This document shows positions 6,482 through 40,455 of a stretch of 44,769 nucleotides of DNA, one piece after another. Every line of letters starts with the position of its first letter. The first letter of the stretch is position 1. The notes beneath the pieces were generated by a model. That model did not search any database. It worked only from the letters and a program-made list of their open reading frames with translations, and had not been told where the DNA came from. This DNA is from Bigelowiella natans CCMP2755 (Eukaryota > Protista > Cercozoa). The DNA lies in the NCBI GenBank assembly GCA_000320545.1, contig ADNK01001236.1, forward strand, positions 1-44,769. The letters are read 5' to 3'. The position numbers were made by a program, and so were the translations under genes.

Positions 6482-6518
<37 letters not shown>

Positions 6519-6944: not shown

Positions 6945-7354
6945 CTATAATCCCCGAGAAAGCGCCCCTGCCCCTTTGTTCCACTCTCCCTCTCGCTCTC
7001 GCTCTCGCTGGCTGTCTTCTCGAGGCGCTAGCCAAGGCAAAAGGAGGAGGGTCTTTAACACAATGCAAAGAGAAAAGCACTTACTTTCCATCCTTGGAGG
7101 ATACGGAGCTGCATCTCGCTTCAGAGACCGTGGGAAGAAGACAGAGCTTGTCCTCCTCCGACTGCTGCTGCTTCCTCCAAAGAACAACCGTCGTAAGTCG
7201 AGAATCGCCACCGTTCTCCGCTGCTTGACCCGCCTCGATATCAGCACCAGGGATCCCGTGAAAAGCACCCACAGAGCAAACGAGAGCAGAAGCATTCCGA
7301 GCGGGAGACACATCAGCGGCAAAAAGACCAAACTGACGATGCTCTCCTTCAGAC

Positions 7355-7387
<33 letters not shown>

Positions 7388-8831
7388 AACGGTTTGTGCT
7401 GATGTTCGGGGTGCTCCTGCTACTGGGGGAGGTACTTTTTGATAATGAGGGGAGGGGCTGCATTTTCTCCTCTTCTTTGCCGCTCTCAACGCGGTGCGGT
7501 ATCTTGCGCCGCGTGGCTCCTGACAGCATAGAGGAGGGTCTGATGCTCTTTCTGACCGTCATTAATGTTTCTAAAGCCGATGGTGGTGGCGATGATGATG
7601 ACGATGACGATGACGATGATGACGACGTTAGAGAGCAAGTTATGGAGGCTGGGCGGCGGATCCACCACCGGCCAAATGCTTCCTCCAACCGTCGCTGTGC
7701 TGTCATAGGGGAGGCGTCGGTGTGGGTCGGCATCAGAAGGGCCGGTGATAATGATGGGGGGGTGGAGGATGACAATCTGCCGAGATGCTCACGGCGAGGA
7801 AGACGGCGGTTAATTTGATGATGATGATAGTTTGGCTGCTGCTGCTGCTGCTCTGGTAGTAGCAATGACTCGATGGCATTGAGCCATATTTCCCGAGCTG
7901 ACCAGGTTTCCGAGGATAAGAGCAATAGAATATCAGCTGAAGGAAGCTCTGTTGAGGAAGAACCTCTCTTCTTCTTCTTTCTCCCATCCTCGCCTCCCCC
8001 CCCCCCCTCCTCCTTGTTGCTGCTCCTCCTGTTCCCGCTCTTCGTTGTACCATACGCCCTGTGGACGCTAGGCCAGGGCTCACGTAGCCGACCACCTTGA
8101 GAATGATCTTCCTGATTGTGCAGCAAGGCGAAGGTATACGGTGGCAGCAACGATGATGAGGATGACGCTGACGGTGCTGGCGTGGAGAGTGGGGAAGAGG
8201 ACGGTCTCGAATCGCCCAGCAGCAAGCCAGCTCGTAGTCCTCCTCCATCTTCAACTTCTTTCTGTCGGTCACAATATCTAACTACACGCCCCACTTTGCT
8301 TAGAGGGATCATGATGATTCCGTCCCCATCGTCGTCGTAATCACGCTCATCATTCGACCCCGTCGCAGACTTGTTCTCATGTGTTGCCTCTTTCTTCCTC
8401 CTCCGCGCCATCGTCGTCATCATCGGTTGTGGCGCAAGCACGACGAACCACCCCTCAGCATGGCAGGCGAGCGACGCTCTCACAGGGCGTCGGATTCTCT
8501 CCGAGCCCCTCCCATCTACACCATCGTCCAATAACTCCATTGTTAGATAGTGATTCTCCGCACAAATCCTTGAGCTCGCCAGTAGCCACCGGGAAGTGAA
8601 CGACCGCGAGGCGGTGCGTAGCACACGGGCGATATGGATTAGTGGCGAGGCTCCTGGTTGCTGTGCATCTGTACGCGTGGTGAGGCCGCCTTCTTTTCTA
8701 TGATGATAACCGACGCTATCAGCAGCAGAGAAACCACGGCCGTTGTTGCCGTGTTCATTCTGACCTGCCCTTGCGTGAACTGATGATGATGATGATGATG
8801 ATGATGATGCCTCCTTATCAATACACACACA

Positions 8832-8890
<59 letters not shown>

Positions 8891-11689: not shown

Positions 11690-11733
<44 letters not shown>

Positions 11734-12110
11734 ATCACAACCCTAGGCTGCCTTGTGCCATCGACGCAGCCTTTCCCCCGTCGCCAATATTGTAATGAGA
11801 AAACAGCTCCAACACAACCGTCGGGCCCAGACCCCTTTCTATACGCGCAAAAGCAAGCACCAGGACGAGACTCTTCTCCCCCCCTCTCGTTCCGCCCGCT
11901 ACCTCGCCCCCCTCGGGATTCATGTGAAGGCGCACAAGCCAGTGCAACGGCCTTTGGGGAGGGTAGGGGAGGCGCGGGGAGGATGATGAAGAGGATGATG
12001 ACGATATTAATGGTGATTGCTTTCGGGAGTAGCTGCTACTGCCGCAATGCCATGCCTCTCGAGGCACTCCAAGAACCAACCGGAGCCTATAGCAAAAGCA
12101 AAGAATCATT
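6945..12110 (-). CDS. Large multi-exon low-complexity protein with several PH-like domains and a possible C-terminal transmembrane segment
   Basis: Long ORFs 6945-8972 and 9214-11091 plus 11249-11566 and 11735-12109. PH-type C-terminal helices: LLLLSSETWSAREIWLNAIESLL, MRDEWLHLLTVVS and YTFKLTSAAAHHLVHRVRSIV. Hydrophobic stretch LVFLPLMCLPLGMLLLSFALWVLFTGSLVLI. Boundaries, and whether this is one gene, are uncertain. Confidence 0.5.
8780..8900. repeat. Compound intronic microsatellite (TGA)n(CA)n(GA)n, one example of many
   Basis: Directly visible. Similar (CA)n, (GA)n and (TA)n tracts occur near 1300, 4170, 6485, 11695, 12540, 14965, 21105, 22205, 23080, 29222, 40460 and 40990. Confidence 0.95.
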
Positions 12111-12536
12111 CCTCATTAAATAATGAAGTAGCCTTTTTGATGTTGCGGCGCTATTTACGACCCAAAAAATGAAAGCTTTACGCTAATGATTCGTGTCTCG
12201 CGACACATCGCATTGGCGTGTTCCCCTGATTCGCCAAAACAAATGAAACCGCATCGCGACGCGTTGCTCACGATATAGCACCGAGAGATTGCGTCCTATG
12301 ACACACGGCCTCAGGATGGAAAGCTCAGTGGTGATCTTAGATCGTCAGAAAGCTTCACGATATATTGGCACTTCTTTTGCGAACATGTTCCGCTTCCTCG
12401 CCATTTCTCTTCCAGCATCATAAATCGTATATTTTCAAGAAAAGGTGACGATTTCGCGCGGTTCATACGCGATGGTTCCTGGTCTGTGATCCTGCTTTGC
12501 CTCTCACCGACTACGAAACTATCGATCGAAAGCTTT

Positions 12537-12583
<47 letters not shown>

Positions 12584-12614
12584 CTCTTCACTACCGCAAG
12601 GCCACGCTCACAAA

Positions 12615-14960
12615 TTAATCATACCCGTAAGATGGCAAATGGTCCTGATGATGGGGTAGACGGCGATGACGGGTGGAGGGGGAACGATTGAGGAAGTTCC
12701 TGGTGTATGAATCATGTCCCGAGACGCTTCTATGATGGTGAGGTCGCCGTTTGTGCATGAACTTCCTCTTCTTCCTCTTTTCCTTCTTAGTCCTTCTCCA
12801 GCGCCGTGCGTTGGTTTGGAACATATCATCGCGTCCATCTTCGTGGCGCTCCCCCCCCCCTTCTTTCTCTTCTTCTTCTTCTTCTTCTTCTTCTTCTCCG
12901 TCAACCTCCTCCCCAATACCCGTGGCGTAGAAGCCGCCATCGTCGCCTTCATCAGAGATAAACTGCTGTGCACACTCATCTGGAGCCCCTTCCAGCACCC
13001 TCACACCGCTCGCCAAGGCGATTTCTCTCCCTGATGCGGACGTCACGGCATCCCAAGTCTGATTGTTGCCGAAATAGGGGGGAGGGGGTGGGGGGGGGAG
13101 GCCGATATTAGTACTAGCATTATTGTCGTAGACTAATTTAGTAGTTTTGGTAGTAGGAGGTGTAGTTGCTTACGATTTTACCAAGAGCCATGGCATCTTC
13201 TTCTTCAAGAGACTCAGAGCATGAGTCACGAGGGGTATAACGTTGATGTTGACGTTGATGATGATGACGATGCACATGTTTTCGGTCGCTACCGCCGTTC
13301 TTAATCGGTGTTTCGTGCAGCGAGGAGCTGTCCTTTGCAGTAGGCGCCTTTGTTTTGGTGTCGTTGTTTTCCACTTTCGATGAAGAAACCGCAGCAGTAG
13401 TAGTAGCAGCAGCACCACCACCAGCCGTATCGTCAGCATCACCATTTGCTCTGCTAGGCTTGGTAATCTTGGGACTGAGGTGATTCTCCTTTTTCACGGT
13501 TTTCTTTTTTGCCGCTACTACCGCCTGGCCGCTGCTGCTCTTTCCAGGGATTTTCTTTTGAGCAGGAGAGCCAATGGAGGGGGCGGGGGCTGTATCAGGC
13601 ACGGTCGCAGTCTGATCTGCTGCAGCCATCCTCTCTGCAGATGGAGATGCTGGTATATTTAGAGATAGTGGTGGCTCTTTGCAGAGTCGCCCATGCGGCT
13701 GTTGTTGCTGCTTCTGGTCCTCTTCTTCCTCCTCCTCCTGCTTCTGGTGGCGTTGGGGCTGCTGCAAGAAGTTCCTCGTGGGGGTGATATTTCCACTGGC
13801 GTCCTTGTTGGGGGTGATGAAAGGATTGAAGACACGCTGCTGCTGCTGCTGCTGCTGTTGAAGCAGCAGCCCTCCTCGTGTACGGAGTGGATGTGAATTT
13901 GATCGGATGGGAACAGGGCAACTAACTGGCAGCCCAATCACCTGTGATTCGCTCTCGCGACGGGGTCGTCTTGCAGGGGGGGGGGACATTCCGAGTGAAA
14001 CAGTACGTGAAGCCCAACCCTCGTATAGACCATTTGGGTCCCGGCTCTTCGACCTGAAGTAGCCGCTAACATCTCCTCCCCCGCTCCCCCCCGCTTTCGT
14101 TTCTCCTTCCCCTGCTGCCAGTGCTGGTACTGGTGACGCCGTTGTCTTCGCGCTGGTCCCCCTGCCATCTACGAGAACGTTGCTGCGGAGTTGTTTCCAT
14201 ACATCACGCGAGGAAGAAGTTGGAGATCGAACGCCCTCCTTTTGCTGCTGCTGTTGGATGGACCCTACAGTCTGGTGAGAACGGGCAGATGGGCTGCTTG
14301 TCGTGACACCAGTGGCTTTGTTGTAGTCTCTTGCCCTTCTGGAGGAATGATACAGGACGGAAGTGCTGCTACGAGACATGCCATCATGACTTCTGCTGTT
14401 TCCGCCAATACGAAAACCTGGGGGTCCACGTAAGATGCCCGACCCCCTGGGAGAGGAGACAATGGGGGGCGAGGAGATGCGGCGCGTAAAGCTGTCCTGA
14501 AGGGTCCCTTCTTCCACCCCCCTGTCCTTCGTTTTCACCATATCGTCTGTACGGAACCCATTGAAGTCCTTCTGCAACTGCCTCAGTACCACCGTGTCAG
14601 CTTCTCGAATCGACCGAAGATGATGCTGCCCAACCAATCCGCCACCTGCAGAAGTCCCACGGCGTCGCTGTAGTTTCGCAGAGGAGACGAGCCTGCCCCC
14701 CCCCATCGTTCCCATGCTACCACTGCCGCTGCCTCCCATGGCTGCCGGGGGAGTCATTACGTTCCGCCGCGGTCCTGATAGTGTCGAATTCAAAGCTGAC
14801 CGCCTTGAGCTGGAGAGGGTCGATGATGAGGAACCCTGCAATGGCCTATGCTGAGCAGCATTTTGAGCTTGGAACGCCCCTTCATTTTCCCCGTACTTCG
14901 CGATAGTCTGATGAGAAGTAGCATAGTGGCTGGAAGGTGAGGCAAATCCTATCAATGTGG

Positions 14961-15002
<42 letters not shown>

Positions 15003-15361
15003 CGTTTCTCCTGCTTGCATTTGTTTGAATTACCTCCCTAATCGCAACCAACCATTTCTTGGCAACAAAAGATGAATCATTTACATCCGTGGGAACCTGA
15101 GATATTTAGTGGGATTTATTATCTCTTTCTCCCTCTCTTTCTCTCTTTCTCTCGCTATCTTGTGGATGCGTGTCGTAAATAAAACAAAGATTGCGCGGCC
15201 AAAATAGAATGACCTTGAGATTAATAAAAGCTCCGTTGCTAAGTCTCAAATTCAAATGGCGAGTTGTCTTTCCGGGTTTTACATCCAGAACCCCTTTCTT
15301 CATATCTACTACCTGAGAATATCAGAGTAGTGATTAATGCATCTACTCTCGCTCACTCTCT

Positions 15362-15399
<38 letters not shown>

Positions 15400-15774
15400 T
15401 CTTTATACTTATAAGTATATCATGCGTATATGTGTATGCGTATGTGCGTATGTGTGTGCGCGGGCGCGACTTTTGCATACGATCACTGGCGTAGTATGTT
15501 ACTACGATGGTACATCGAATAGATTGATATTTTTTGTGACACCATCGCATCCGACGTGGAGCCCGAGTCCACCCCCGTTTCCCTTTCCTTCCAAAACGTG
15601 AGCGTGTGCCGCTCAATACGGCACTGCCTCAATTTCCATTTGGTATCTCCTCCTTGAAAGCACACACATGCAAGGTTAAAACCTTCCCCACCTGGGAGAA
15701 AAGAAGCGAAAAGCCGAAATACCCGTTGAGGTGGGGAGCTTGATGTAAAGGGCACCTTCCATTACTTCCATCAT
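12615..15774 (-). CDS. Protein with an N-terminal PH domain and a long disordered tail
   Basis: Four small spliced exons give MMEVMEGALYIKLPTSTG-GDTKWKLRQCRIERHTLTFWKE...-VVDMKKGVLDVKPGKTTRHLNLRLSNGAFINLK-VPTDVNDSSFVAKKWLVAIRE. This fits the PH pattern (EGxL.K, WK.R.c.l, terminal W..AI helix). A S/P/G/Q-rich ORF (13138-15051) and a last exon (12615-13046) follow. Confidence 0.7.
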
Positions 15775-16790
15775 GCAATGATTCTACGAGGTTTAAGCAG
15801 GTTGATGCCCTTCAACTTCGGCTCCAGTCATGGCATCCTCCGCTGGCAGAGCCAATCGGCGCTGGTGGTGCTTTTCCCTGGCAATGGGCCCTTCGAGGTT
15901 TGGTGTCGAATTTCGTTCCGACCGAATTTCTTTTATGATCATTGTCTTTGGTAAAAATCGGCATGTATTTTCGTCCCAAATTGCATCTGAGATTCAGAAG
16001 CGAGAACGATGATTTTTCTTGTCTGGGAAACAGGTTTTTGCATCATGCACTAGCTAGCAGCTAGCTAGTGTCTTGTCACACTTTGGAAGTGCAGTTTTTC
16101 ATCATTGTTCATTGTTCATTGTTCATTGCAAGATTGACCACGAGCGTTTCGCGTCTAATCAACATGTTGCTCACGCGTGGACGTTCGTGCGTGAAATTGA
16201 TCTGGAAATCGGTGGCTGCTAGCTGCGCTGCGGACGCTCTGCCGCAGCGCCCCAAACGTCAACCTGCATGATGTGCGACGCCATCACGCTGCATGGCGGT
16301 GGAAGTGCCTGAACGCACCCACAGCGCTGCGCAAAGTCTGCAACTTTCTTGAAACAAAAGCGATGCGATGAACGACCCCGCCACATCGTGACGACTGTGG
16401 CTGCACCCGCCGCCATGCCAGCATGCATGCACACGCATGTGCGTGCTGTCGTGATCTACACGCAGCTAGCAGAACTGCATGCACCTGCGTGCACTTGCAA
16501 GTTGTGGCCGATGCCATGCAAAACGCAAACGTCAGCGCCTCGTCAGCAAGTCGAAGAACGTGTGCATCAAACATCACATTGGAGTGTGCACACACTGGCC
16601 ATGCAAAGATTGCAGAGTGCATCGAATGATGACCAACACATGTAGCCGTGCAGGGGGGTGCTACTAACAACGAACACAATGCAAGATGAGATAAATGAAT
16701 GCCTCACCGATCTTCTGTGCAGAAATGCATCAGTAGGATTGTTGAAACTCACCATCTCTCACTCTGCTTTCCACAAGGGGTATGATTAAA

Positions 16791-19570
16791 TTAGCTAGTT
16801 GTTTTTCCTTCCTCTTTTACTTCCTCCTCAACCTTCTTTTCACTTTCATCGTCATTCTTCTTTTCACTTTCCACATTATCCGCTGTACTTTTCTTGTTAG
16901 CACTCGCATACTTGAAAAGGTATTCCGCCAGGAAATCCACTGGGTCTTCTGGCTGCACCTTACACACCTATTGAAATAGAGAACGAGTTTATGTACCTCT
17001 CTGATCTTTTCGAAGTTTAATCTAGCAAACCTGCAGCAGCCCTTTGGTTATTGGAGGGACAACATTCTTCATGAGGTACCTACGGTACCAAGCACAAAAA
17101 TTTATATGACAATTCGTCGTTGAGGCTCCTTTCCTTACTTTCTCAATGGCATTGAGTAGTTCTCGACAAGAGCTTGTTCCTCAAGAAGCAACTGAGTTGA
17201 GATATAAAATTTTACATACTAGTTTATTGAGCTGAACGTACGATTCCGTCCAAACCTGTTTCCTCCTTTCGGCATCCTCTTTCTCTGTCTCTTCTTTTTT
17301 CTTGACAACCTCTTCGGCTTTCTGTTTAGCATCAGCCTCCTGCAAGTAATGTTTAAACGTAATTAACGAAAAGGTTTGAAGTCTCATAACAACAATGAGG
17401 TGCTTAGGTTACAGTGCACACGTTAGCAGTACCGCTTTATTTTTTGTCTCTAAGATCTTGCTCTCACGCTTGGTCATTGCAGCGTAGGACTCTTCCTCGC
17501 CTGTGGAAAGATCCTTACAGATCGAGATACATCATACTCAGATGGTGTCCATATGTTCTCAGCATGTAATTTTCCACCTTGGGTTTGAACTTTTTGTCAA
17601 TGTATCTTGACACGGAGTCCGGTACATCGCTTTTCTCCTCGAATCCCAACTCCAGTATCGTGGAGCTCTTACGGAAGTATTCAAGAGGATCTGGAACAGA
17701 GTATGGATTACATTGAGAAACTTTGATTACAAAATAATGGCAGCACGTGCTTACTTTTTGTGACATCATCCTGAAGCTTCTCGAATTCTTCGGTCCGTGC
17801 CTTGAACCCCTCCTCGTCGTTATACGCAGCAATTACCTAAAGATTCCCCCACCATTTGTGAATCGACAACTTTTTTTTGAAATCAATGATGCGCCACCTT
17901 GTCCACAGGTATACTATGTATCCTTTTCTCGGCTTGTTCCACGCTGACATGCAAATCTATGATGACATTTGGGGTCTGCGGTTGGTCTACCACACCACTT
18001 CCGTTCTCATCTTTCGAGTCGTCTTTGGAGTCCGATTGAACAGTGAAAAGAGCCTGAAGAACACCATGATCTCTGTGAGAAAAATTCTCCAATTTCCTAA
18101 ACATGTCGAGTGTTATACCTCAGCTGCTTCATGGGTGGTCGGGAATCCATCTAGGACAAAGCCCTACATATTTTCCGAAGAAATTCAGCGTGGTGCTACC
18201 AGCGTATTCTATTATGAGTCACCTTATTCCTAAAGTGCGGAGTCGAGAGGGTTTTCTTAATGATATCCACCGACACTTCAGTGGGCACCATCGTTTCAGC
18301 GTCGGGGGCTTTAGCCTTTTTCGCAGCAGCACGTGCAGCCTCCACTTTTGCCTAGAAATTAACACTGTCAGATTTGCATGAATGAAAGAGGGTGGAAATG
18401 AATGCCACCTTGATTTCCTCGTCCTTCGACATTGCATCCTCGATGATTTCCTTCGTGTCCACGATCAGGATCTTATATTTTTCAGCCAACTTCTTTGCAA
18501 GGAATGTTTTCCCTGCACCAGGTCTTCCATGGATGAACACTTTGATAGTAGGATACAGCCCATTTACACTGGTGTATTCTTTGCAAACCCTACCCGCGTT
18601 TACAGCCAGACCATCTTTGCACTCCCACTTCATCCCCTTCGCCTCGAGGCCATTAACATACCCCAGCTCTATCGGTTTGTTGAACATCGCGGCCTCTAGA
18701 TTTCCCCATTTGCCGGTAAGCGCATCAATAGAATCCAGGGGCAATTGCTTGGTTTCTCCTGACCCCAGTATCTTCGATACTTCCTCTGCAATTTTCTTTG
18801 AATCTCCTTTTGAAGAATCGGTCGCGAGGATGTACGGACTCTCAGGAAATTCGCTTTGAATGTGGAATAATATTTTCGCAAGGTCCATTACGTGCAATGA
18901 GGGTAACACTCCCTTTGACTCGAGAAATTGGACAGGTTTGCAAAGAAATGCATCCCGGAAGTAAGAGAAGAGTCCTTCAGGACTTTTATCCTCTCCATTG
19001 CCATACAGAACTCCAGGAGCAACTATGCAAGGAGAAATCGTGCTTTCCTCGCTTGATTGGGCACAGGCTAAAATCTCATCTTCAAGAGTTTTGATAGCTT
19101 TATATTTGAAAGAGCACTCCCGTGTCTTGTAGTCGGTCTCCTTCAAAGAGCTACTGTTGGATTTATTCCACGATAGGAACGTTGAAACACCAACAACGTA
19201 GAGCGGAGTCTTGTTAACTTTAATTTCTAAAATAATGTCTTTTAGAACGGCAGCGATAATATGCGAGAGAAAAGGTGTAAATTACCTTTAACAGCACCCA
19301 AAAGTTCTTGTACATGTCCTCCATTACGCACAAGATCCACGACAATTAAAGATGCCTTGGAAAATATCCATATTAGTAAACATCGTGGGTGTTACGGATG
19401 ATTTCTTGCTTCACCTTGGCTACAGCACTTTTCAAGTCTAGGCCGGGTTTTGGTTTTAGAACGTTGTGCTTCAGGGCACGACATTGTTCCTCCACCGCAT
19501 TTCCGATGTAAGTATTGCAGTCCTGCCACCACGTAGAGTCAATTAGAACGTTGAACCCACCATCGCTCAT
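16791..19570 (-). CDS. AK7: Adenylate kinase 7 (ciliary; NAD-binding-like N-terminus, ADK domain, Dpy-30 domain)
   Basis: Motifs YVVGVSTFLSW..LKETDYKTR, CIVAPGVLYGNGE, LPSLHVMDLA and P-loop VFIHGRPGAGKT. C-terminal Dpy-30 motif [40 protein letters not shown]. Stop TAA at 16791-16793. Confidence 0.9.
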
Positions 19571-25168: not shown

Positions 25169-28100
25169 CTATTCTTCTTCGTCGGCCTTCTGAGGTTCCT
25201 TCTTTCCAACGTCACTTCTGCGGAAAACTTTGTTAACCTTGCCATCGAGAATGAGAACGTCCTTAATTTTCTTCATCTCGGTTTCAGGTTCAAGGTTTTC
25301 AATGGCAGAAGCGGTCATGACTCTCAAGTTTGGACTCAGCTTGTAGATCTGAACAACTCCGCGCTCATCTCCGACAAGAACGATAGGTTCCCGAGGGTTG
25401 AAAGCCAAATGCGTAAGGTTAGGTGGCTTCTTCTTGTACTTCCGAGTAATCTGCATTTCCCCAACCGGTTCGTGCTTGTTCACGTTCAAGTCGTAAAGCC
25501 GAAGCCAGTTGTCTTCGGTGACACAACCAAACACTGTAGAGGAGTATGGCGCCCATTGGACATCACCGACTGGGCTGCCAAGGTCGAAAGTCATAATCGG
25601 TTCGAAGCAACTTCTATGCCACACCTTTACACACCAATCATGCGATGAAGACAAGAAGACATTCGTGTTGTATTTGTTCCACTTGCAAGCATAAACTTGG
25701 GAGTGGTGCCCTTTGAACTTCTCGAGACATTCCGTGTCGTACTGCTTCGAGTACGTTCGGAGAGCGCCTTCATCAGTTCCGACGACGTATAGGTCTCCAG
25801 AATCGTTAACATCGAAGCATTGGCCTCCCGCAAGAGCCGGGTTGGTTTCCTCATCATCATCGTTATCCTCGCCTTCTAACTTCTCCTTGGCCTTGATTTG
25901 CATCACCTCTACATTCTCCAGCTCCGTTTTGGCCATGACCCAGTCCACAATTCTGCCGTCCGATGAGATGCTCGTGAACACGTTAGGCTTCCCGGGAACT
26001 GTATTCTTCCATCGCACCTGCCATACGGGCTCCCAGTGCTTCTTCCGCGGATCGTCGACAAAGAACAAAGGCTTTCCTGTCTTTGAGGTCATGTCGTACA
26101 CGGAGACCGTTCCATCGTACATCCCGCACGCTAAGAGGTTTGGATAAATCGGATGGAAGTCGATGCTCATCACGCCGCTATGTGTTCGGAATACGAATAT
26201 CGGATAGGAGGTATTCTTCATAGAGAACACACAAATGAGCCCCTTTTGGTTCTTGGGCATGAAATTGTAGCTGCCGTACCCCACCGCGAACATGTCCATG
26301 TATTTTCGGTTCCAGCAAAGAGCCGTCACCGTCTTCCCTTTAGCCTCGTGAAAGCTACACGAGAACAGGTGCTGGAAGGTACCCTTTCCTGTCTTCTTAT
26401 GCTCTCCGCGATGATCCTTCTCATCGCTTTCCGTGGTGTACTTAAACTTCATGAAAGAAGAGTTCTGAGAAGGAAAAAAAGAGAAAATTAGACCAGCGAA
26501 CCCTGCATGTGTATCGACACAGCGAACGATTTCTTATAGCGGAGAAATCAAGCTAACAAGACAATCGCATCTATCTGTCAGCTACAGACATGGAGCTGTT
26601 GCAAAATTATGTGTTTTACCTTTACGTTTTGAACCACGATTCGGTCTAACATATCTGCGAGTATTTTGGCACGAGGATTGTTGAGAATGCGGTCCCTCTC
26701 GATAGATTCATCGGATCCATTGTACGTGAGCACGGTTTGGGTGTTCTGCAGACAGAGAAGATTAACCATTAGCGTCGCATTCAGGGCATACATCGTTTTT
26801 GCTTTGGACCTTTTTCTTCTTGTCTCTTGAGCCCTTCTTCTCTGCAGCATGGCGAGCTGCGACGATCTCCTTGGCCCATTTCACGTACCTATCGTAGATC
26901 GTCCACTGGAATACACTTTTGCAGAACTTGACAGCCGGGGGCATTTTGGTAGCAACCTACAATGGGGAGGAAATGATGTATATTAGAGAACGTGCCGTAC
27001 CATCGTCAGTGAACTAGTAAAAGTCCTTTAAATAACGATAGCTCAAATCTGACTTATTCTCTCGAAATTCAGTTTCGTGGTAGGTGCCGCACCTCTTTAG
27101 TTCGGGATGGGAAGGACACTGTTTGAGATGCTCGATCACTAAAGTTGAACTGGTTCTTGGAATATATATCGTCGCTCTGATATCAAACACATCACAATAT
27201 TATACATATGTAAATGTGTGTGATATTTGTAAATTAAAAAGACGTTTCTGAGAAAAAGCATGCGCGATGATATTCTGTATGAAATTGTTCATTACTATGA
27301 AATTCTCTTGTTTTGTGGAAATTGAGAATAAATCAGAGACTACCTCTTTTTTTCCCTCCTCTTCCTTCTCTTCCTCCTTGCTCTCATCGTCCTCTTTCTT
27401 TTCCTCTTCTTCGTCTTTCCCTTCCTCCTTCTTTTCCTCAGAGGCCGCGAACTCTAGATTGGCATCGATTGCAGCGAATTTTGCCTCGATATCATCAAAT
27501 TGACTTTGGTTGGCCGTCGAAAGCTTCACAACCTTCTCCTCCTCAACAGGGTCCTACAAGAAGTTTTCGTAGCTTAGTCTCAAATTCGTGGATGGGCCAG
27601 TTTCTACATTGTTGCCTTTTCCGTGCTGTTTGTTAGATACTGCTACAATCTAAATTCCGAAAAGGACATTGTGTCCATATAGCTAAGATTATCAACCTTA
27701 ATATTCTGCTCCTTGGCTTCTTCACCATCTTTCAAGATCAGATTTCCCATCATCTTAAAATGGACGCACATGTGCATCTGGGAGTGGAAGAAGATGTTAC
27801 TTTAGGTGCAATCTACCAGATCATTCACCACAATTGGGTACCTGTGCAGCCACATTCTTTGGCTTGTATAATTTATATTCTTTCTCTTTGTGGTGAAAAT
27901 GGCAGATGTTTGGTGGGACATTGGGATCTTTCGCCTCATACGTTGTCTCATACTCTCGATCTGAAAACGTAAGAGATAAATAACACTACCTTTCCACATC
28001 TGATGGAATTTTTTTACCAAGCTCCTCTGGGGAGAGCTCCACGATCTTCTTTTCAGGCTGTAAAAAAAACAAAAATCCATTAGATCGAAGAGCGTGCACA

Positions 28101-32199: not shown

Positions 32200-32754
32200 A
32201 TAACTAGCCCAGTGGTCTGTGTAGTTAGTTGCGTTTGCGTGTGGCAGTAGTAGTGGAGCAGCAGCGGCAGCGGCAGAGTAGCCCTGCTGCGCGTAGCTCT
32301 CTAGCTTCGATGCCAGGCGCTTCTCCCCTTGGGTCAACAAACAATGCTGTGGATTGTTGCATTTCCATCCATTGTCATTTGCTCAATCATTGATTGAATC
32401 CCAGCGTCTGTTCTCTCACATGTGTCGATGCGATCGCGATGTTCATTGCATGCACTACGCATTGCTGTGTGGCGTGTTCACGATTTTGGGCATCATCATT
32501 GGTAGTCAATCTGTCAATCCCCCCCCCCCCGCAATGAGCCGATCGACGTAAATGCAGAATTTCATTCGGGAAAAATTTTGTGGAGCAACATGATCATTGT
32601 GGACACCAGCGCAACACATGAGACGGATGCAATGAAATGTTCAAATTTTTTCAATGGTCATCCTGATGTAGCCATGCTAGCATGCAATCCACCAGCGTCA
32701 TTTGATTGCACACAATGCACATGTTGCTCTGTGTCTCTGTTGTCACATGATGAT

Positions 32755-33108
32755 GCAGCAGACTGCCACACCACACCCCACATTTGATTTCCCATCTGCC
32801 GTCAGTAGGGGAATGACACAAAATTTTCATTTCAAAAATTCACCTACTGACGACCTACTGCTGAACTGAATTGTTAGAATGACATGGCAAAATTGCACGA
32901 GCATGACATGTCAAGTGTTCGACATTTGATTTCCCATCAGCAATCAGTAGCAAAATGTGCGAAAATGCGCAACATGAAAGCTTCACCTACTGACGACCTG
33001 CTGCTGAACTGAATTGCTATGATGACATGATGAAAATGTTCTACCCATGTGTTTTGTGAAAACAATCTTTGTTAAAAATGACATAGCAAAATCCACAGCA
33101 GAGCATCG
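32755..33108 (+). repeat. Left terminal inverted repeat (354 bp)
   Basis: Reverse complement of 37788-38141, compared line by line. Only 2 mismatches, both near the outer end (gactgcc/gactacc and ccacacc/ccatacc). Confidence 0.97.
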
Positions 33109-33147
33109 TTAAAAACACTGTAAATTTGTTCTCACCTAAAATAATAA

Positions 33148-33879
33148 ATGAGAATATTCAAATCAAAACAAGGAAAACCATTAGATGAATGGCTGACGGA
33201 AGAACAATTTAGATCTTTGAAAAACAAAAGATTTTTGCATGTAATATCATCAAACATGGACACACACAAAAGAAAACCTACTGAAGAACTTGTTGTTAAA
33301 TTTGGGCAAGGTAAGGGAACTCAGCCAGCATCAAGATTAAAAGATTACATATCATATTGTGGATACACTGATAGCAAAAGGCCCTGGATGGGTTGCAAAT
33401 TACATTATTTATTCATCACTGAAAAGAGTAAAAAAGTAGCAGCAATAAACTCTATGGTTCATAAATATGAACTCAAATTAAAACAGTATGCTAAAAAAAA
33501 CAACTTGTTAGTAGACAGAGGCGATGAAAGGATATTGATAAGATTAAGTAAATTAATTAGAATATTAGATTATAAACAATTTAAAAAACTCACAGACATT
33601 GAGTCAAAACCTACATACAATTTACGAAATAAAAAGCAGAAATACATCGTTGAAATATTAGACCATACAAACAAAGCAAAGAAAAATAACCATCAAAAAC
33701 CTACTACCTTCAAAGTGAAATACAGTGATGGTAGTGTAGAAGGAACAATTAGAAATGTATTACCTAATGATGTTAAATCAAAGAATTTTGATAAGTTATT
33801 TAGAGAATATTATGAAAAATCAAATGATAAAGACAATATTAAATTAGAAGATGAATATGTAAAACATCTTGGTATTTAA
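33148..33879 (+). CDS. Element ORF1, Lys-rich 243-aa protein with a C-terminal chromodomain-like segment
   Basis: Intronless AT-rich ORF starting 40 nt inside the left TIR. YIVEILDH...TTFKVKYSDG resembles the chromo consensus Y.VE.ILdh....ylVKW.G. Confidence 0.75.
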   Translation: MRIFKSKQGKPLDEWLTEEQFRSLKNKRFLHVISSNMDTHKRKPTEELVVKFGQGKGTQPASRLKDYISYCGYTDSKRPWMGCKLHYLFITEKSKKVAAINSMVHKYELKLKQYAKKNNLLVDRGDERILIRLSKLIRILDYKQFKKLTDIESKPTYNLRNKKQKYIVEILDHTNKAKKNNHQKPTTFKVKYSDGSVEGTIRNVLPNDVKSKNFDKLFREYYEKSNDKDNIKLEDEYVKHLGI

Positions 33880-34091
33880 TCATCTACTAAAATATCATAC
33901 ACAGCCCATTTTATATCTTTATTAAAATCAAATGGTTTTTTCATAATTTGTAATTTGATAAATAAATCACTATTTTCTGTTATCAGTAATTTATTAATTT
34001 TTTGTAATTTGTTTATCCTTTCTTCTAATTTTTTTAATCGTTTCTCTAATAAAGTGCCGAGTCTTGGAGCAGAGCCCGTCTGTATTCTGTT
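33876..34091 (-). CDS. Possible small coiled-coil ORF convergent with ORF1 (no ATG seen)
   Basis: Stop-free frame LLEKRLKKLEERINKLQKINKLLITENSDLFIKLQIMKKPFDFNKDIKWAVYDILVDD*. Its stop overlaps the ORF1 stop in TTAA at 33876-33879. Confidence 0.4.
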   Translation of the reverse strand, partial: NRIQTGSAPRLGTLLEKRLKKLEERINKLQKINKLLITENSDLFIKLQIMKKPFDFNKDIKWAVYDILVDD

Positions 34092-34182
34092 TTATTTGGA
34101 GGTCCCAGTCGTGATATTGATAAAAAAATAGTTGATAAATACGATATTCCTTTATTGGAATAAAAAAATCTATAGTAATGTA

Positions 34183-34338
34183 ATGTTAAAAAAATTAACC
34201 AAAAGACAGAAAGATTTATTAGCAGCTCATAGCAAGCATCATAGTAAAAAACATGTGGCATCTATGAGAATGAATCTAATGTTAGGTAAAACTTTCAAAG
34301 AAGCACACGAGATAGCAACTAAAAAGTATGGTAAGTAA
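34183..34338 (+). CDS. Small basic His/Lys-rich protein (51 aa) of viral type
   Basis: MLKKLTKRQKDLLAAHSKHHSKKHVASMRMNLMLGKTFKEAHEIATKKYGK. From memory it resembles small hypothetical proteins of marine viruses (unverified). Confidence 0.7.
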   Translation: MLKKLTKRQKDLLAAHSKHHSKKHVASMRMNLMLGKTFKEAHEIATKKYGK

Positions 34339-34360
34339 ATAATTTTTATTATTATTATTA

Positions 34361-36316
34361 ATGATAATAAATCTTATTAAATATTTATTAAAAACAATAG
34401 ATAAATTCATATGTAATAAAATTACAGGACAGCTTGAGAAGAAATACAATCACAAATCAGTGTGTAAAATTTACAAAAATTTGAATGAAGCAAACCATTA
34501 TAAGAAATTATGTGGCGGCGAAATTAACCCTATCAGTGATGATCTATTCTTACTTGTAAGAACCACTAAAAAACTGGTAAGAGAAACATTCAAACCTGTT
34601 AAAGATGTGATGTATGACCTTGTTTCTGTCAAGATGTTTAATTCATGTAACAAATGTTTATCTGTAGGATTACATCCTGTGGCTATTAAAACTGATTGTG
34701 TTATTGTAAGAGATAAAGTTGACAAGATTAAACCTTACTTTGATTTTAATAAAGACATTGGTGGTGTGAAATTGGAGGAAAAAACTAAGGTCATGGGTCA
34801 ATGCTTCATTCCTTTAGAAAATGAAGTGGTAGAACCTAAAACAATCAACATCAATGAGATTGACATTGTGAATGAATGGAACACAGAAGAAATTACAAAC
34901 GTATTTGATAAGTATGATGGAACTCTTGTGAATGTTTTACTACCTGGTAGTGGTAAGAGTTATTCAGTTAAAAAATGCAAAGGTAAAAAAATCTTGTTCG
35001 TAGCACCGTTTAATGAATTATGCCAAAATATTCGTGAGAGCGGACACGATGCTATTACTTATCACAGATTATTTAGCCTTGACATTCATAACAACGAATG
35101 TAAATACATAAGAAAATTTGATATTTCACCATGTGATGTCATGTGCTTTGATGAGGTTTGTGTGTATTCACTACATCAACTATCAAAAATTAAGTCATTT
35201 ATGGATAAGCATGTTGATAAAAAATTTATTGCTACTGGTGATTTAGCTCAATTGGATCCCATTGAAAACGAATGTCTGTTTAACAACATCAAAGACCTTG
35301 ATGTCAGAACAACTGAAGCCATGAATGATATGTTCCCTAATCAAATCACTCTTAAAATCTGTAAGAGAGTAAAAACAGACGAGGAAAGAAACACTCTTGC
35401 ACGATTAAAACAAGAAATATTTGATGTAAAAACTAAACCATTTGATGTGCTAAAAAAATATTTTAAAGTTGTTGAAAGTATGGATGAAGTAAAAACACTT
35501 AATAACATTACCTTCTACAACTTTAGATCCCGTTCAGTAGGCAAGTGCATCCACGGTCTACAAAAGAAACCGAGAAAAAAGGTTTATGTAGATGGTATTT
35601 GCTACTATGCTGGTATGGAGATTGTGTGTAAAAAATGTAATAAGAAACCAAAACTATGTGTGAACTATGCTTGTGAAATTGTTAAAGTAAGTAAAAAAGA
35701 ATTTGTGATACAGGATGTATGTGATGTGGAAGAAATAAGAATTCCTATGGAATTAATTAGTAAGCATTTTAGATCATCATATGCCTCTACCTGTCATAGT
35801 TTCCAAGGATTATCAGTAGATGGCCCTATCACCGCATTCGACACTGACACCTGTAGAATTAATCGCAAGTGGCTCTGGACTGCTATGACTCGTTCAACTG
35901 ACCTATCACAGATACAAATGTGTCAGCACAGCGATAAAGAATGCTACAGATTAAAAGAAAGTATGATTTCTCAAAAACTACGAATGAAAGTATCTTCACA
36001 TGAATCTCAGGACAAAAGAGCTGGTAGAACTTGGAAAGATAAAGAATATATTGATGAGGAATGGATAAAAAGAACTGTTAATGATCATCCACAATGTCCT
36101 GTGTGTAGATGTGGATTTACTGCTGACAATGTTTCTGTGGATAGAATTGATGATGATCTACCCCATCTCTGGAACAACTGTAGATTAACTTGTGTTGGGT
36201 GTAATTTATCTCGCAATAATCAGCAAACTTGTCCAGCATTTGGTGAATACACCCCTCGGGATGTTGATTTTGAAGATGAGGTGAGTGATGAGGACCTCAT
36301 CCATCTTGGGATTTGA
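34361..36316 (+). CDS. Degenerate family-B polymerase fragment fused to an SF1 (RecD/Pif1-like) helicase and a C-terminal HNH-type nuclease/zinc domain
   Basis: PolB motif B-like KFICNKITG and degenerate motif C AIKTDC. SF1 motifs: I PGSGKS, Ia ILFVAPFNEL, Ib AITYHRLF, II CFDEV, III ATGDLAQLDPI, V YASTCHSFQGLS, VI WLWTAMTR. C-terminal CPVC...SVDRIDDDLPHLWNNCRLTCVGCN. Confidence 0.9.
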   Translation: MIINLIKYLLKTIDKFICNKITGQLEKKYNHKSVCKIYKNLNEANHYKKLCGGEINPISDDLFLLVRTTKKLVRETFKPVKDVMYDLVSVKMFNSCNKCLSVGLHPVAIKTDCVIVRDKVDKIKPYFDFNKDIGGVKLEEKTKVMGQCFIPLENEVVEPKTININEIDIVNEWNTEEITNVFDKYDGTLVNVLLPGSGKSYSVKKCKGKKILFVAPFNELCQNIRESGHDAITYHRLFSLDIHNNECKYIRKFDISPCDVMCFDEVCVYSLHQLSKIKSFMDKHVDKKFIATGDLAQLDPIENECLFNNIKDLDVRTTEAMNDMFPNQITLKICKRVKTDEERNTLARLKQEIFDVKTKPFDVLKKYFKVVESMDEVKTLNNITFYNFRSRSVGKCIHGLQKKPRKKVYVDGICYYAGMEIVCKKCNKKPKLCVNYACEIVKVSKKEFVIQDVCDVEEIRIPMELISKHFRSSYASTCHSFQGLSVDGPITAFDTDTCRINRKWLWTAMTRSTDLSQIQMCQHSDKECYRLKESMISQKLRMKVSSHESQDKRAGRTWKDKEYIDEEWIKRTVNDHPQCPVCRCGFTADNVSVDRIDDDLPHLWNNCRLTCVGCNLSRNNQQTCPAFGEYTPRDVDFEDEVSDEDLIHLGI

Positions 36317-36351
36317 AGAAGTTGAGAATGGAAATGCGAAATTCAATTTTG

Positions 36352-36395
36352 CGATTTTTTAATGATGATAAATTGTTATCATCATTAAAAAATCG
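36352..36395. terminator. Perfect 20-bp hairpin (4-nt loop) after the helicase stop
   Basis: cgattttttaatgatgataa-attg-ttatcatcattaaaaaatcg, beginning 36 nt after the TGA at 36316. Confidence 0.7.
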
Positions 36396-36608
36396 GTACA
36401 GCTACGGATGTAACCATTGTTTTTGGGAGAAACGGTACAAGTCTCCTCACATTAGATCTACATGTACATGTCGGTTAAGCGATTTGGCCTTCTCTTCTCC
36501 AATTCGCGACATCAATTTTCGGTTCTTCATGTGGAAATAGTAATGCGTTTTCCCTTTGGCGACGCTTGCATGCTGAACTTGATGATCATTGAACCGTCTA
36601 TCTCAGTC

Positions 36609-37532
36609 ATGGTTCCCGCCTTCGCACTTTTGCTACTCTGGGCATCCACAGCTTTAGCGTCCTGTTATTCCGTCCGAAATGACGCGTCGTGGGTTAAGGT
36701 TCGCACGATCAATTCCAGCGCGGCTGACTGTCCATATTTCACCGACAACCTTGACGGGAGTCAAGCTGTTGGTGCTGTCACAGGCGGCGGCGAAGTCATC
36801 CAAACTTACGACGGCAGCAGCATTGTGGGGTTCAAGTTTGAAACGGGTAACGGAGCGAATTTCCTCATCGCAAGAAGGTTTCAAGTCATCGGGGAAACCT
36901 ACGCTGGTTCACCCCAACGAGACGTTTATTGCAGCAGCTATTCCAACAGTTCCTACACAGCAGAGTGGTACAACCGTGGGAGCAACAACCCAAGCGACCC
37001 TTTGATATTTCTCCGAGGCTACAGCACCACCACCACTTCAAAACAAAATTGTTTCTACTGCGAATATGAAGCTAGTCAAGGCGACCCATTCCAAACGATG
37101 TGGCAGGCCAACGGCGGTATTGACATCTACGTGACCTCCAACCAAGTCTTCCCGACCAGTTCTCCAACAGCCATGCCAACCGCAAGCCCCGCAACCGCAA
37201 GCCCCGCAACCACGAGCCCGACCGCAAGCCCCGCAACCGCAAGCCCCGCAACCGCAAGCCCCGCAACCGCAAGCCCCGCAACCACGAGCCCCGCAACCGC
37301 AAGCCCCGCAACCACGAGCCCGACCTCAAGCCCGACCTCTAGCCCGGATGATGACAATGCCGAAAGCATTGTGGGTCCTGTCGTCGGTGCGGTCTGCGGA
37401 TTCTTGGTGTTGGCAGCTGTTGTTGGATACTGCTACTACCAGCGAGGCAAGCCCAGCGTCGACCAAAATGCGAATGACCAAAACTTCGCTGGAGTAGTCA
37501 ATGACCAAAAAGGGGGAAACAACGCATTGTAG
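36609..37532 (+). CDS. Intronless type I membrane protein (signal peptide, ectodomain, (TASPA)n stalk, TM, short tail) carried inside the element
   Basis: Signal peptide MVPAFALLLLWASTALA from ATG 36609. Ectodomain contains WVKVR...AEWYNRG..DPLIFL. Pro/Thr/Ser/Ala stalk, then TM IVGPVVGAVCGFLVLAAVVGYCYY. Clearly more GC-rich than the other element ORFs. Confidence 0.85.
   Translation: MVPAFALLLLWASTALASCYSVRNDASWVKVRTINSSAADCPYFTDNLDGSQAVGAVTGGGEVIQTYDGSSIVGFKFETGNGANFLIARRFQVIGETYAGSPQRDVYCSSYSNSSYTAEWYNRGSNNPSDPLIFLRGYSTTTTSKQNCFYCEYEASQGDPFQTMWQANGGIDIYVTSNQVFPTSSPTAMPTASPATASPATTSPTASPATASPATASPATASPATTSPATASPATTSPTSSPTSSPDDDNAESIVGPVVGAVCGFLVLAAVVGYCYYQRGKPSVDQNANDQNFAGVVNDQKGGNNAL
37179..37346 (+). 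repeat. Coding 15-bp tandem repeat (accgcaagccccgca) encoding TASPA/TTSPA
   Basis: About 11 directly visible units, some with variant or 12-bp forms. Confidence 0.9.
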
Positions 37533-37787
37533 GCCTAAAAATGGATTGCTGCATCGCTGGGGGATGGCAAGTTGTTTGCTGTTGGCGGGGCTAACGATGA
37601 AGATGTTCCTTGCACATCGGGGAAACATCTTCGCATTGCGATGCAGCCTGCTTTGATTTGAACATTTAATCGTTGTGTCATTTTTTATTTACTTTTTTTT
37701 TTTACAATTGCACTAAAATCTCAAATTAATATTTTGTTAAAAACTTTGTTAAAAAAAAATAATATTACTTTTTAAGAGTAAATGATG

Positions 37788-38141
37788 CGATGCTCTGCTG
37801 TGGATTTTGCTATGTCATTTTTAACAAAGATTGTTTTCACAAAACACATGGGTAGAACATTTTCATCATGTCATCATAGCAATTCAGTTCAGCAGCAGGT
37901 CGTCAGTAGGTGAAGCTTTCATGTTGCGCATTTTCGCACATTTTGCTACTGATTGCTGATGGGAAATCAAATGTCGAACACTTGACATGTCATGCTCGTG
38001 CAATTTTGCCATGTCATTCTAACAATTCAGTTCAGCAGTAGGTCGTCAGTAGGTGAATTTTTGAAATGAAAATTTTGTGTCATTCCCCTACTGACGGCAG
38101 ATGGGAAATCAAATGTGGGGTATGGTGTGGTAGTCTGCTGC
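37788..38141 (-). repeat. Right terminal inverted repeat (354 bp)
   Basis: Runs cgatgctctgctgtggat...tatggtgtggtagtctgctgc and is the reverse complement of 32755-33108. Confidence 0.97.
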
Positions 38142-38675
38142 GAGGCATGCGAATAAGCGCGTACACGAGTAAATCGCAGCACTGCTGATCGAGCACGCCC
38201 GCACGAGCTGTTTCCGATATCGCCGCCGATCGACGTGTCGTATGAACAATGAACCTGCGGTGTTGATTGACCGTACGTACCTGTCTAGCTGTGCGGCGCA
38301 GCACAAACACGAACGAAAGACTGGCGCATGCGTATCGGTGGAATGTCGTGCATCGCGTGCTCCCAGTACGTAGCGTGCGCACCATCAATGAGGCTGACGA
38401 CAAGTGTGCTATGTGCAACAGCAAGCACATTCCTGTACTATTTCACGGCGATGACGACGTCTACAGTCATGGCATTGTATTTCACGACAGCCTGCTGCGC
38501 ACATAGCTAGCATAGATAGTGATAATGCTTAAAGAAGCACGTATAAACGCACAAATAATTCGCTGTTTTCTGCGCAACATGCATCGCATGCTCATATGCC
38601 TGTGCCCTGCTCGGGGATACTGAAGGGGAGACATTATCAATCTATTAAATTCGATAGGAAATATCTTTGCGACAT

Positions 38676-39411: not shown

Positions 39412-40455
39412 TTATGGTGTGTGTTCTTTCTGTTGTGCTAGAACCTCATCTAATAACTCCGGTTGATCCTCCAGCTTTTCTTTCAGGTAGCTTACTTGGC
39501 TGCTGACGTAACGTGCATTCACCTGTCGCGTACGTTCCATACCCACACAATTACTACGGCTTTGAGCAATAGACGAAAAAATTTAATCGGAGGTAGAGGG
39601 TAATTAAATCATGAATTAATTTAAATATATGTGAGTGCGTATTGATTCATTACATCTGGAAAATTTTCCTGTTGAAGAAAATCCTTTAATTTTGTTCCCT
39701 TCTGCATCAGCTGTACCCACACCACACACACACACACACACACAAAGCACAAAGCACCACACAACACACAAACACAGGCAAATGTGAGTTTGAATGTCTG
39801 CCAAAGATAGATGCGTCTCCCTTCCATCTTTTCCCGCAAATAATCATCATCATCATCATTCCTCAAAAAGCAAACATCGCACGCACTAACTTCTCGTCAT
39901 TCAACAACCATTGTTAGTCACCACCTTCTCTCTCAAAGACATGAGCTGCGCGACGTAGATGAGAACGTGGTACTTTGGAATACAACAATTATAATTAAAA
40001 AGCATAATTATAATGTCTTCAATACTTCGATAAGATCGAACGGTATCGATATCGTACTTGCATCTATTATCACAAGGGCTCTTGCTTATCAAAGCCCCCC
40101 CCTCCTCCTCCTCCTCCTCCTCTACCACCAGCAGCAGCAGCAGCTACCTGGATCCCCATCGCAAAGACCACATCGAGCAGCAACACGACCTGCATCATCA
40201 TCGCCATCATCATCATCATCCTCAACAACAAACAACAACAACAATAACATCTTGGTAGAAGAAACTCCTTTCAGACTTATCTATTCCTAAACGACGACAC
40301 CAGTAACAACAACGACAACGACAACTCAACTACCACTACTGCTACTATTACTGCTATTACTACTACTATACCTGTTCCAAAGGCTTTGTGCACAATGACA
40401 GGGTCTGCAATTAAGGAGTAGTAGGATGTGAGGTATCTATCAGCACCCCTCAGCA

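What the first reader, a model, noticed from the sequence alone, without database searches (positions are those of the whole stretch)
32755..38141. Integrated capsid-less transpoviron-like/Polinton-derived element with 354-bp TIRs
Seen: near-identical long TIRs enclosing 4-5 intronless ORFs, including a PolB-remnant/SF1 helicase fusion. Known: fusion of an inactivated PolB to an SF1 helicase is a shared signature of Polintons, PLVs, Tlr1 transposons and transpovirons. Transpovirons are small TIR-bounded linear parasites of giant viruses, and such elements have been reported integrated in the Bigelowiella genome. Inference: an endogenous giant-virus-dependent linear replicon, or an internally deleted PLV, with no mobilising enzyme of its own.
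Basis: partly seen in the sequence, partly recalled or inferred. Interest (0 to 1): 0.85.

Follow-up and report, generated by a model that had tools for sequence, protein, structure and literature searches.

The report
Gutted algal virus under host mutation
In the alga Bigelowiella natans this is a real 5.4-kb integrated piece of an already described Polinton-like virus family that lacks capsid genes and half of its replication gene, carries an internal inversion and many TA-to-TG/CA changes, and is likely a dead relic being eroded by a host mutation process reported in 2026, not a new transpoviron.

Summary
The element is real: 354-nt terminal inverted repeats with 2 mismatches, and no target-site duplication found. 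A public gene model matching this locus letter for letter places it on Bigelowiella natans scaffold 26. The helicase end is 71/77 identical to the helicase of PLV-Bnat26, one of the B. natans 'transpovirons' that Krupovic 2016 showed to be capsid-encoding Polinton-like viruses (PLVs).

The 651-aa ORF is not a natural PolB-remnant fusion. It is the C-terminal half of a 1,200-1,400-aa protein, and its start codon comes from another gene through a ~350-bp inversion. No capsid, ATPase or integrase gene was found. The element also holds a GIY-YIG/chromo-like gene, a 51-aa gene and a GC-rich membrane-protein gene.

Differences from sister copies are mostly TpA-to-TpG/CpA changes, graded among copies. 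This is the B. natans hypermutation of a 2026 preprint, which this scan also noted on two other pieces of this genome.

Verdict: a defective, likely dead member of a known PLV family. Still open: whether a capsid-less form spread as a satellite, since other copies also seem to join the repeat directly to the first gene.

The parts
32755..33108 (.). Left terminal inverted repeat, 354 nt, with a 142-nt-period subrepeat; strongly TpA-depleted (rho 0.33)
   Evidence: both mismatches to the right arm (32765, 32774) are TG/CA here where the right arm has TA
33148..33879 (+). ORF1, 243 aa, open; predicted T5orf172/GIY-YIG-like N-domain plus chromo-like C-domain
   Evidence: 8 homologs: 4 B. natans gene models, 1 MMETSP transcript, 3 metagenomic proteins. 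The model is weak (pLDDT 60); best Z 5.5 to a CHD4 chromodomain region, and T5orf172 proteins fill the viral list at E about 0.01-0.1. Same length as BnTV26_14; suggestive only
33876..34050 (-). 3' part of a small minus-strand gene, cut off from its start by the inversion
34051..34400 (.). Segment inverted relative to other copies; holds the 3' fragment of one small gene (34053-34163), the 51-aa ORF and the start of the small minus-strand gene
   Evidence: L007 matches 33355-34050 forward and then 34401-34082 reverse; 2 contigs of run X7 join 34050 to 34398 on opposite strands
34183..34338 (+). 51-aa basic protein, open; phrog_31838 (unknown function)
   Evidence: E 4.5e-6; its 90% cluster holds a B. 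natans scaffold-87 gene model and an identical JGI/IMG protein
34361..36316 (+). 651-aa chimeric ORF: about 12 borrowed residues, then the C-terminal half of a PLV pPolB-SF1 helicase-HNH protein; motif A absent; TpA-hypermutated
   Evidence: 28 longer homologs of 1,178-1,645 aa, none matching upstream of 34391; motif-A pattern in 26 of 28 relatives and not here; 71/77 identical to the Bnat26 C-terminus by eye
36352..36395 (.). 44-nt AT-rich palindrome after the helicase stop, likely a transcription-end hairpin
   Evidence: function inferred
36462..37532 (+). GC-rich intronless ORF (356 aa; likely start 36570 or 36609): signal-peptide-like N-terminus, ~160-aa extracellular domain, Pro/Thr/Ala/Ser repeats, one transmembrane segment
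   Evidence: 93% identical paralog on B. natans scaffold 74; 101 hits for the domain; model pLDDT 85, best Z only 4.4 to intelectin-1; hydropathy
37788..38141 (.). Right terminal inverted repeat
   Evidence: junction to the single-depth flank bridged in 4 of 4 runs

Best explanation
This is an integrated, defective copy of the Bigelowiella natans Polinton-like virus family (PLV-Bnat) that lacks capsid, packaging and integrase genes and the N-terminal half of its PolB-helicase gene, carries a ~350-bp inversion, and is likely dead and being eroded by the host's TpA-specific mutation process. Shown: family membership of the helicase, the truncation, the inversion, the absence of structural genes inside the repeats, and the direction and context of the mutations. 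Inferred: an AT-rich linear PLV genome integrated without leaving a detectable target duplication; one deletion removed the capsid module next to the left repeat; a second deletion with inversion fused the start of a small gene in frame to the helicase half, which is why a 651-aa ORF is open; the repeats were likely the replication ends and could now act only with proteins supplied in trans; the host then changed TpA to TpG/CpA on both strands. This copy has taken fewer such hits than four sister copies, so it is likely younger or only recently targeted.
For: Host and locus: JGI model Bigna1|87971 (scaffold 26) is built from this locus letter for letter. Family: 71 of 77 residues are identical to the Bnat26 helicase C-terminus printed in Krupovic 2016 Fig. 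S4B (by eye); BnTV26 encodes ATPase, major and minor capsid proteins and a 1,268-aa helicase. ORF1 and the 51-aa ORF have paralogs on scaffold 87, and a PLV_Bnat87 capsid protein is shown in the same supplement. Truncation; one X7 contig of 682 nt matches from 34403 on and has 304 unmatched letters upstream. Inversion. No structural genes: the ORFs fill the interior; 0 of 3 Bnat26 capsid motifs and no tblastn hit under E 0.2 for 9 capsid, ATPase, protease or integrase proteins of relatives. Hypermutation: among the 40 of 269 differences shown, 26 of the 27 where the window has G/C and other copies A/T lie in TG/CA (background 0.45, p 1.5e-8). Tyr-to-Cys accounts for 10 of 79 window-specific changes against 0 of 144 in two outside relatives (p 2e-5). 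Conserved ORF1 tyrosines lost: window 4 of 17; paralogs 7 of 11, 11 of 11, 11 of 11 and 13 of 13. Same signature as bioRxiv 10.64898/2026.01.13.699255.
Against: ORF1, the 51-aa ORF and the membrane-protein ORF are open, all SF1 and HNH motifs scanned are present, the repeats are 99.4% identical, and an MMETSP transcript encodes a 94% identical ORF1, so the family is not all dead. Other copies also seem to place the repeat next to ORF1 (one joint with 49 letters on its short side, one contig reaching 23 nt into the repeat), so the capsid-less layout may predate this insertion. That these repeats are the repeats of capsid-bearing BnTV26 was not shown. ORF1 equals BnTV26_14 by length only. Against L007 the TpA signal is moderate: 21 TpA-type changes towards the window, 7 reverse, 48 other transitions, 79 transversions. 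The helicase's TpA ratio (0.69-0.74) is not clearly below that of six relatives (0.73-1.01) or the host median (0.665). The difference tables show only the best-supported rows, which may bias the counts.
Confidence: 0.72

Rival explanations
1. The copy descends from a capsid-less satellite subfamily (repeat, ORF1, small genes, full PolB-helicase, membrane protein, repeat; roughly 7-8 kb) that arose from PLV-Bnat, replicated with a helper and integrated several times: a second, independent route to a transpoviron-like way of life. This copy was broken afterwards.
For: Other copies join the repeat to ORF1. Contigs with 2-6 differences run from the membrane gene 29 nt into the right repeat. Summed depth in X2 is about 100-340 over the interior against 30-37 over the left flank (not a copy number). 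An unmutated relative (L007, TpA ratio 0.95, 82-85% identical) occurs in a metagenome. Size, repeat length and a membrane-protein gene resemble transpovirons. L006 is a TIR-bounded relative with no capsid among the 4 of its proteins scanned.
Against: Both bridging contigs reach fewer than 31 letters into the repeat, below the tool's own threshold. Interior depth is also explained by capsid-bearing copies and fragments. No full-length capsid-less copy was seen. The contexts of the closest outside relatives (P0001, P0002, P0034) could not be fetched.
Confidence: 0.18
2. The repeats belong to an unrelated high-copy host MITE or DDE transposon family that captured, or happens to flank, a PLV fragment and a host gene.
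For: Summed depth over the repeat (3,000-18,000 in X7) is far above the interior (260-2,400). The last ORF has host-like GC and CpG. A separate very high-copy ~55-bp repeat lies 80 nt to the left.
Against: No target duplication at any of 13 possible end positions, no transposase in the element, and long subrepeat-bearing TIRs are the described form of PLV-Bnat. Viral ORF1 lies 39 nt from the left repeat, and likely does so in other copies too.
Confidence: 0.07
3. A bona fide transpoviron of the mimivirus-associated family, integrated in the host.
For: Small, AT-rich, TIR-bounded, no capsid, Tlr1-like helicase.
Against: The helicase is 92% identical over its last domain to a capsid-encoding PLV and has the HNH tail that Krupovic 2016 reports for PLVs. 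No zinc-finger core gene and no intergenic central tandem repeat were found. The helicase is truncated.
Confidence: 0.03

Closest known systems
PLV-Bnat (BnTV26, Bnat13, Bnat87): the B. natans 'transpovirons' of Blanc 2015, reclassified as PLVs by Krupovic et al. 2016 (PMC5499653)
   Same: Same host; helicase-HNH end 71/77 identical to Bnat26; terminal inverted repeats; a 243-aa ORF of the same length as BnTV26_14; paralogs on scaffold 87.
   Different: 5.4 kb; no major or minor capsid protein, no ATPase; half a helicase gene; internal inversion; a GC-rich membrane-protein gene not among the six proteins listed in Table S1. Blanc 2015 was not available, so this locus may already be listed there.
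TpA-specific hypermutation of integrated viral DNA in B. natans (Mettrop et al., bioRxiv 10.64898/2026.01.13.699255)
   Same: A-to-G after T and T-to-C before A, on both strands, in DNA of viral origin.
   Different: The preprint measured it in one giant-virus and one virophage region and found no clear TpA depletion in 197 viral genes pooled; 'polinton' and 'scaffold 26' do not occur in its main text. Here it is shown by polarised comparison in a PLV family, graded from 4 of 17 to 13 of 13 tyrosines lost.
Transpovirons of Mimiviridae (Jeudy et al., PMC7031253)
   Same: Size class, long TIRs, Tlr1-like helicase, no capsid, one membrane-protein gene.
   Different: PLV-type HNH tail, no zinc-finger core gene found, no intergenic tandem repeat, truncated helicase, no evidence of an episome.
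Virophage/PLV contigs L001-L006 (IMG/VR)
   Same: Same helicase family at 27-35% identity.
   Different: They carry full helicases; L001 has Sputnik-type capsid proteins, L002 an rve integrase, L003 and L005 an A32 ATPase.

Membership tests
PLV (PLV-Bnat group) | Tlr1-like SF1 helicase with C-terminal HNH domain | tested here: met
   Pfam UvrD_C_2, AAA_30, weak HNH; motifs; 71/77 identical to Bnat26
PLV (PLV-Bnat group) | Whole pDNAP-like domain (motifs A, B, C) in a 1,000-1,400-aa protein | tested here: not met
   Only the C-terminal half is present; motif A is missing
PLV (PLV-Bnat group) | Major capsid, minor capsid and A32 packaging ATPase genes | tested here: not met
   The interior is accounted for by other ORFs; motif and tblastn searches were negative. 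It is therefore a defective derivative, not a complete PLV
PLV (PLV-Bnat group) | Terminal inverted repeats | tested here: met
PLV (PLV-Bnat group) | Repeats homologous to those of capsid-bearing Bnat copies | not testable with these tools
   No whole genome held
Transpoviron | About 7 kb with TIRs of 380-520 nt and no capsid | tested here: inconclusive
   5.4 kb, 354-nt TIRs, no capsid, but after deletions
Transpoviron | Zinc-finger core gene (Mvtv_7 type) | tested here: not met
   None among the element's ORFs; it may have been lost in the deletion
Transpoviron | Core gene Mvtv_2 and a helicase grouping with transpoviron helicases | not tested
   No transpoviron sequences were in hand; the tree has none
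Transpoviron | Intergenic tandem repeat of 180-600 nt 3' of the helicase | tested here: not met
   The only tandem array there (37135-37348) lies inside the membrane-protein ORF
Transpoviron | Episome carried in giant-virus or virophage particles | not testable with these tools
   Only contigs were available
Polinton/Maverick | rve integrase and complete pPolB | tested here: not met
DDE transposon or MITE | Target-site duplication or transposase | tested here: not met
   No exact repeat over 2 nt at 13 end positions; no transposase in Pfam
Pif1 or Helitron helicase | Helicase groups with Pif1, or has a Rep domain | tested here: inconclusive
   No Pif1 outgroup; the PDB profile search gave only short RecD and TnsC matches. 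Krupovic 2016 places Bnat26 in the PLV clade, sister to PIF1
B. natans TpA hypermutation | A-to-G after T and T-to-C before A, both strands, in foreign DNA | tested here: met
   26 of 27; 23 of 27 changes carried by other copies lie at TpA (from 40 of 251 rows shown); polarity
B. natans TpA hypermutation | Ongoing raised mutation rate at this locus | not testable with these tools
   Needs reads of related lines; only contigs were laid

The most novel reading that the evidence does not exclude
B. natans carries a capsid-less satellite subfamily that arose from its own Polinton-like virus, picked up a cell-surface protein gene and integrated repeatedly with a helper. That would be an independent, recent repeat of the PLV-to-transpoviron step, with copies datable by their TpA mutation load.
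Probability: 0.2. Interest if true: 0.62.

Novelty: new member of a known kind. Interest (0 to 1): 0.3.

Why it matters
On its own this is a decayed copy of a published viral family hit by a published mutation process. Its use is as a test set. Sister copies range from lightly to fully TpA-mutated, and the two arms of the repeat differ only by two TpA changes, so the family could serve as an internal clock and as a substrate series for finding what triggers the host mutator. If the capsid-less layout proves to have spread as a unit, it would show the proposed PLV-to-transpoviron reduction happening again in a cultured alga.

Tried and rejected
No whole genome is held, so copy number, empty sites and the ends of BnTV26 could not be checked. 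Scans for close relatives found nothing with the window helicase, P0002, alignment A3 or A4 in viral contigs or with A3 in metagenome contigs; A4 found one 1-kb contig there. Alignments A2 (for metagenome contigs) and A5 had no stretch conserved enough to search with. The protein atlas gave no answer. No target-site duplication was found; the best candidate is 5 nt with 1 mismatch and is better read as part of the repeat. I first suspected that the true left end lies near 32618. Fine mapping showed a separate ~55-bp repeat there with many different flanks on both sides. No cluster of loose ends at 32755 or 38141 was among the rows shown, so the family's exact terminus is undefined. Dinucleotide composition alone does not reveal hypermutation in the helicase. 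The reverse polarity (RIP-like CpA-to-TpA in the other copies) was rejected by outside relatives. The PDB profile search did not detect the PolB domain; that assignment rests on motifs and on Krupovic 2016. Fold searches for the membrane protein's domain gave no match at Z 5 or more and none at E 0.001 or less; Foldseek on PDB gave none for ORF1. The tree is a quick one without outgroups and shows only that the window groups with P0001 and P0002. Blanc 2015, Fischer 2015 and Desnues 2012 were not held. The preprint's supplementary tables, which may list this locus, were not seen.
Full report
1. Observation. Each arm has a 142-nt-period subrepeat. The interior from 33148 to 36461 is 26-33% GC against 50-53% in the 1-kb flanks; the last ORF is 54% GC. 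Twenty public runs hold the stretch or part of it, 19 of them of one organism. In the 4 DNA runs laid, a difference-free contig crosses the right junction in all 4, and contigs with 0-1 differences tile the helicase-to-last-ORF junction. The left junction was not bridged in the rows shown. No target-site duplication longer than 2 nt was found at 13 candidate end positions.

2. Host. The gene model jgi|Bigna1|87971 (scaffold 26 by its name) consists of pieces of this locus letter for letter. Paralogs of ORF1 lie on scaffolds 6, 37, 75 and 87, of the 51-aa ORF on scaffold 87, and of the membrane gene on scaffold 74. The window is therefore Bigelowiella natans DNA.

3. Family. Krupovic et al. 2016 (PMC5499653; I read parts 1-3 of 5 of the text and the whole supplement) showed that the B. 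natans 'transpovirons' encode major and minor capsid proteins and a packaging ATPase and are PLVs. Their helicases carry an N-terminal polymerase-like domain and a C-terminal HNH domain. The 77 residues of the Bnat26 helicase printed in Fig. S4B match the window at 71 positions (compared by eye), and 3 of the 6 differences fit a TpA change by the window's codons. BnTV26's helicase has 1,268 residues and its ORF14 has 243, the length of ORF1 here. I take 'Bnat26' to mean scaffold 26; it is a different copy, since no capsid motif of it is in this window. Six IMG/VR contigs carry the same helicase family at 27-35% identity, four of them with capsid, ATPase or integrase hits.

4. The 651-aa ORF is a break product. 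All 28 longer relatives (1,178-1,645 aa) match only from 34391 onwards; the two closest (63%) begin to match at residues 630-639. A motif-A pattern is present in 26 of 28 relatives and absent here. A metagenomic contig, L007, follows the window to 34050 and then continues with the reverse of 34401-34082. Two contigs of run X7 make the same joint. So 34051-34400 is inverted here, two small genes were cut, and the start of one now sits in frame with the helicase half. One X7 contig matches from 34403 on and has 304 other letters upstream, as a longer copy would; what they encode was not seen.

5. Other genes. ORF1 is open. A weak model (pLDDT 60) suggests a T5orf172/GIY-YIG-like domain and a chromo-like domain, and a 45% identical relative has a further Pfam chromodomain. 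The 51-aa ORF matches phrog_31838. The last ORF is a predicted single-pass surface protein with an unnamed, widespread extracellular domain; whether it came from the host or from the virus is unresolved. No capsid, ATPase, protease or integrase gene was found.

6. Hypermutation. One search showed 40 of 269 differences to other copies. In 27 of these the window has G/C and the others A/T, and 26 of the 27 lie in TG or CA (background 0.45; p 1.5e-8). Of the remaining 13, 8 are the reverse transition (5 at TpA) and 5 are transversions. Outside relatives give the direction: at 362 columns where P0001 and P0002 agree, the window differs at 79, of which 26 are explained by one TpA change and 10 are Tyr-to-Cys, against 0 Tyr-to-Cys among 144 private changes of the two relatives. 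With more distant copies admitted, 23 of 27 shown A-to-G or T-to-C changes in those copies lie at TpA (40 of 251 rows shown). Conserved ORF1 tyrosines lost: MMETSP transcript 2 of 14, window 4 of 17, scaffold 75 7 of 11, scaffolds 6 and 87 11 of 11, scaffold 37 13 of 13. Both mismatches between the arms are TpA-type, in the left arm. Weaker results: against L007, 21 TpA-type changes towards the window, 7 reverse and 127 others; and the helicase's TpA ratio is not distinctive. This signature is the one reported by Mettrop et al. (bioRxiv 10.64898/2026.01.13.699255; I read parts 1-3 of 5 and searched passages; supplements not seen), who propose an adenosine deaminase as the cause. Two earlier notes of this scan report it on other pieces of this genome; I had found the preprint before seeing them and did not check their loci.

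7. Mechanism. Most likely (0.72) an integrated PLV-Bnat genome lost its structural module and half its replication gene and is now inert. Any copying would need helicase/polymerase and capsid from a complete PLV, and perhaps a giant virus (inferred, untested). The main rival (0.18) is that the capsid-less layout spread as a unit before this copy broke. Other copies seem to join the repeat to ORF1 and the membrane gene to the repeat, but two of these three contigs reach only 23 and 29 nt into the repeat, and summed depth is not a copy number. An unrelated MITE or DDE origin of the repeats (0.07) and a true transpoviron (0.03) fit poorly; transpoviron features are from passages of PMC7031253.

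8. Novelty. The family and the mutation process are in print. Blanc 2015 was not held (I saw only other papers' accounts of it, including passages of PMC6723459), so this locus may already be listed there. Six literature searches (other papers seen as listings only) showed no description of this truncated, inverted copy or of graded TpA loss among PLV-Bnat copies. Verdict: a new, defective member of a known kind; interest 0.3.

Noticed in passing
window 32618-32677: A ~55-bp very high-copy repeat (summed depth about 97,000 against about 90 for the flank in X7) with many different flanks on both sides, several of them TA-rich; likely a MITE-like element separate from the PLV, 80 nt left of the repeat.
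   Followed up: partly
window 32300-32754: The left flank is strongly TpA-depleted (rho 0.18) while the right flank is not (0.95 for 38201-38600): either the mutator spreads into one flank or older foreign debris lies there.
   Followed up: partly
window 33148-37532: The public gene model Bigna1|87971 joins four separate intronless ORFs and a fragment of this element into one 1,043-aa spliced protein; it is likely an annotation artefact.
   Followed up: yes
window 36609-37157: The membrane protein's extracellular domain has no Pfam family but 101 hits among cluster representatives, often repeated or beside collagen, LamG or F5/8 domains; confident model (pLDDT 85) with only weak likeness to intelectin/fibrinogen and TLDc folds (Z 4.4 or less).
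   Followed up: partly
P0001-P0028: Most full-length relatives keep an Asp in both a motif-A pattern (26 of 28) and a KTD motif-C pattern (17 of 28 by the pattern used), so the 'inactivated' polymerase domain may retain activity in this clade.
   Followed up: no
L006:1-17505: A 17.5-kb, 14%-GC contig with ~260-nt terminal inverted repeats, this helicase and a second large helicase-like gene (Herpes_ori_bp); no capsid among the 4 proteins scanned.
   Followed up: partly
L001:60-8276: A contig with Sputnik-type major and minor capsid proteins that uses the PolB-SF1 helicase-type protein as its likely replication gene.
   Followed up: no
window 40335-40368: A second high-depth short repeat with many flanks; looks like a CTA/CTG microsatellite.
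   Followed up: no
window 25169-26452 (-): Host WD40 beta-propeller ORF; ordinary.
   Followed up: no
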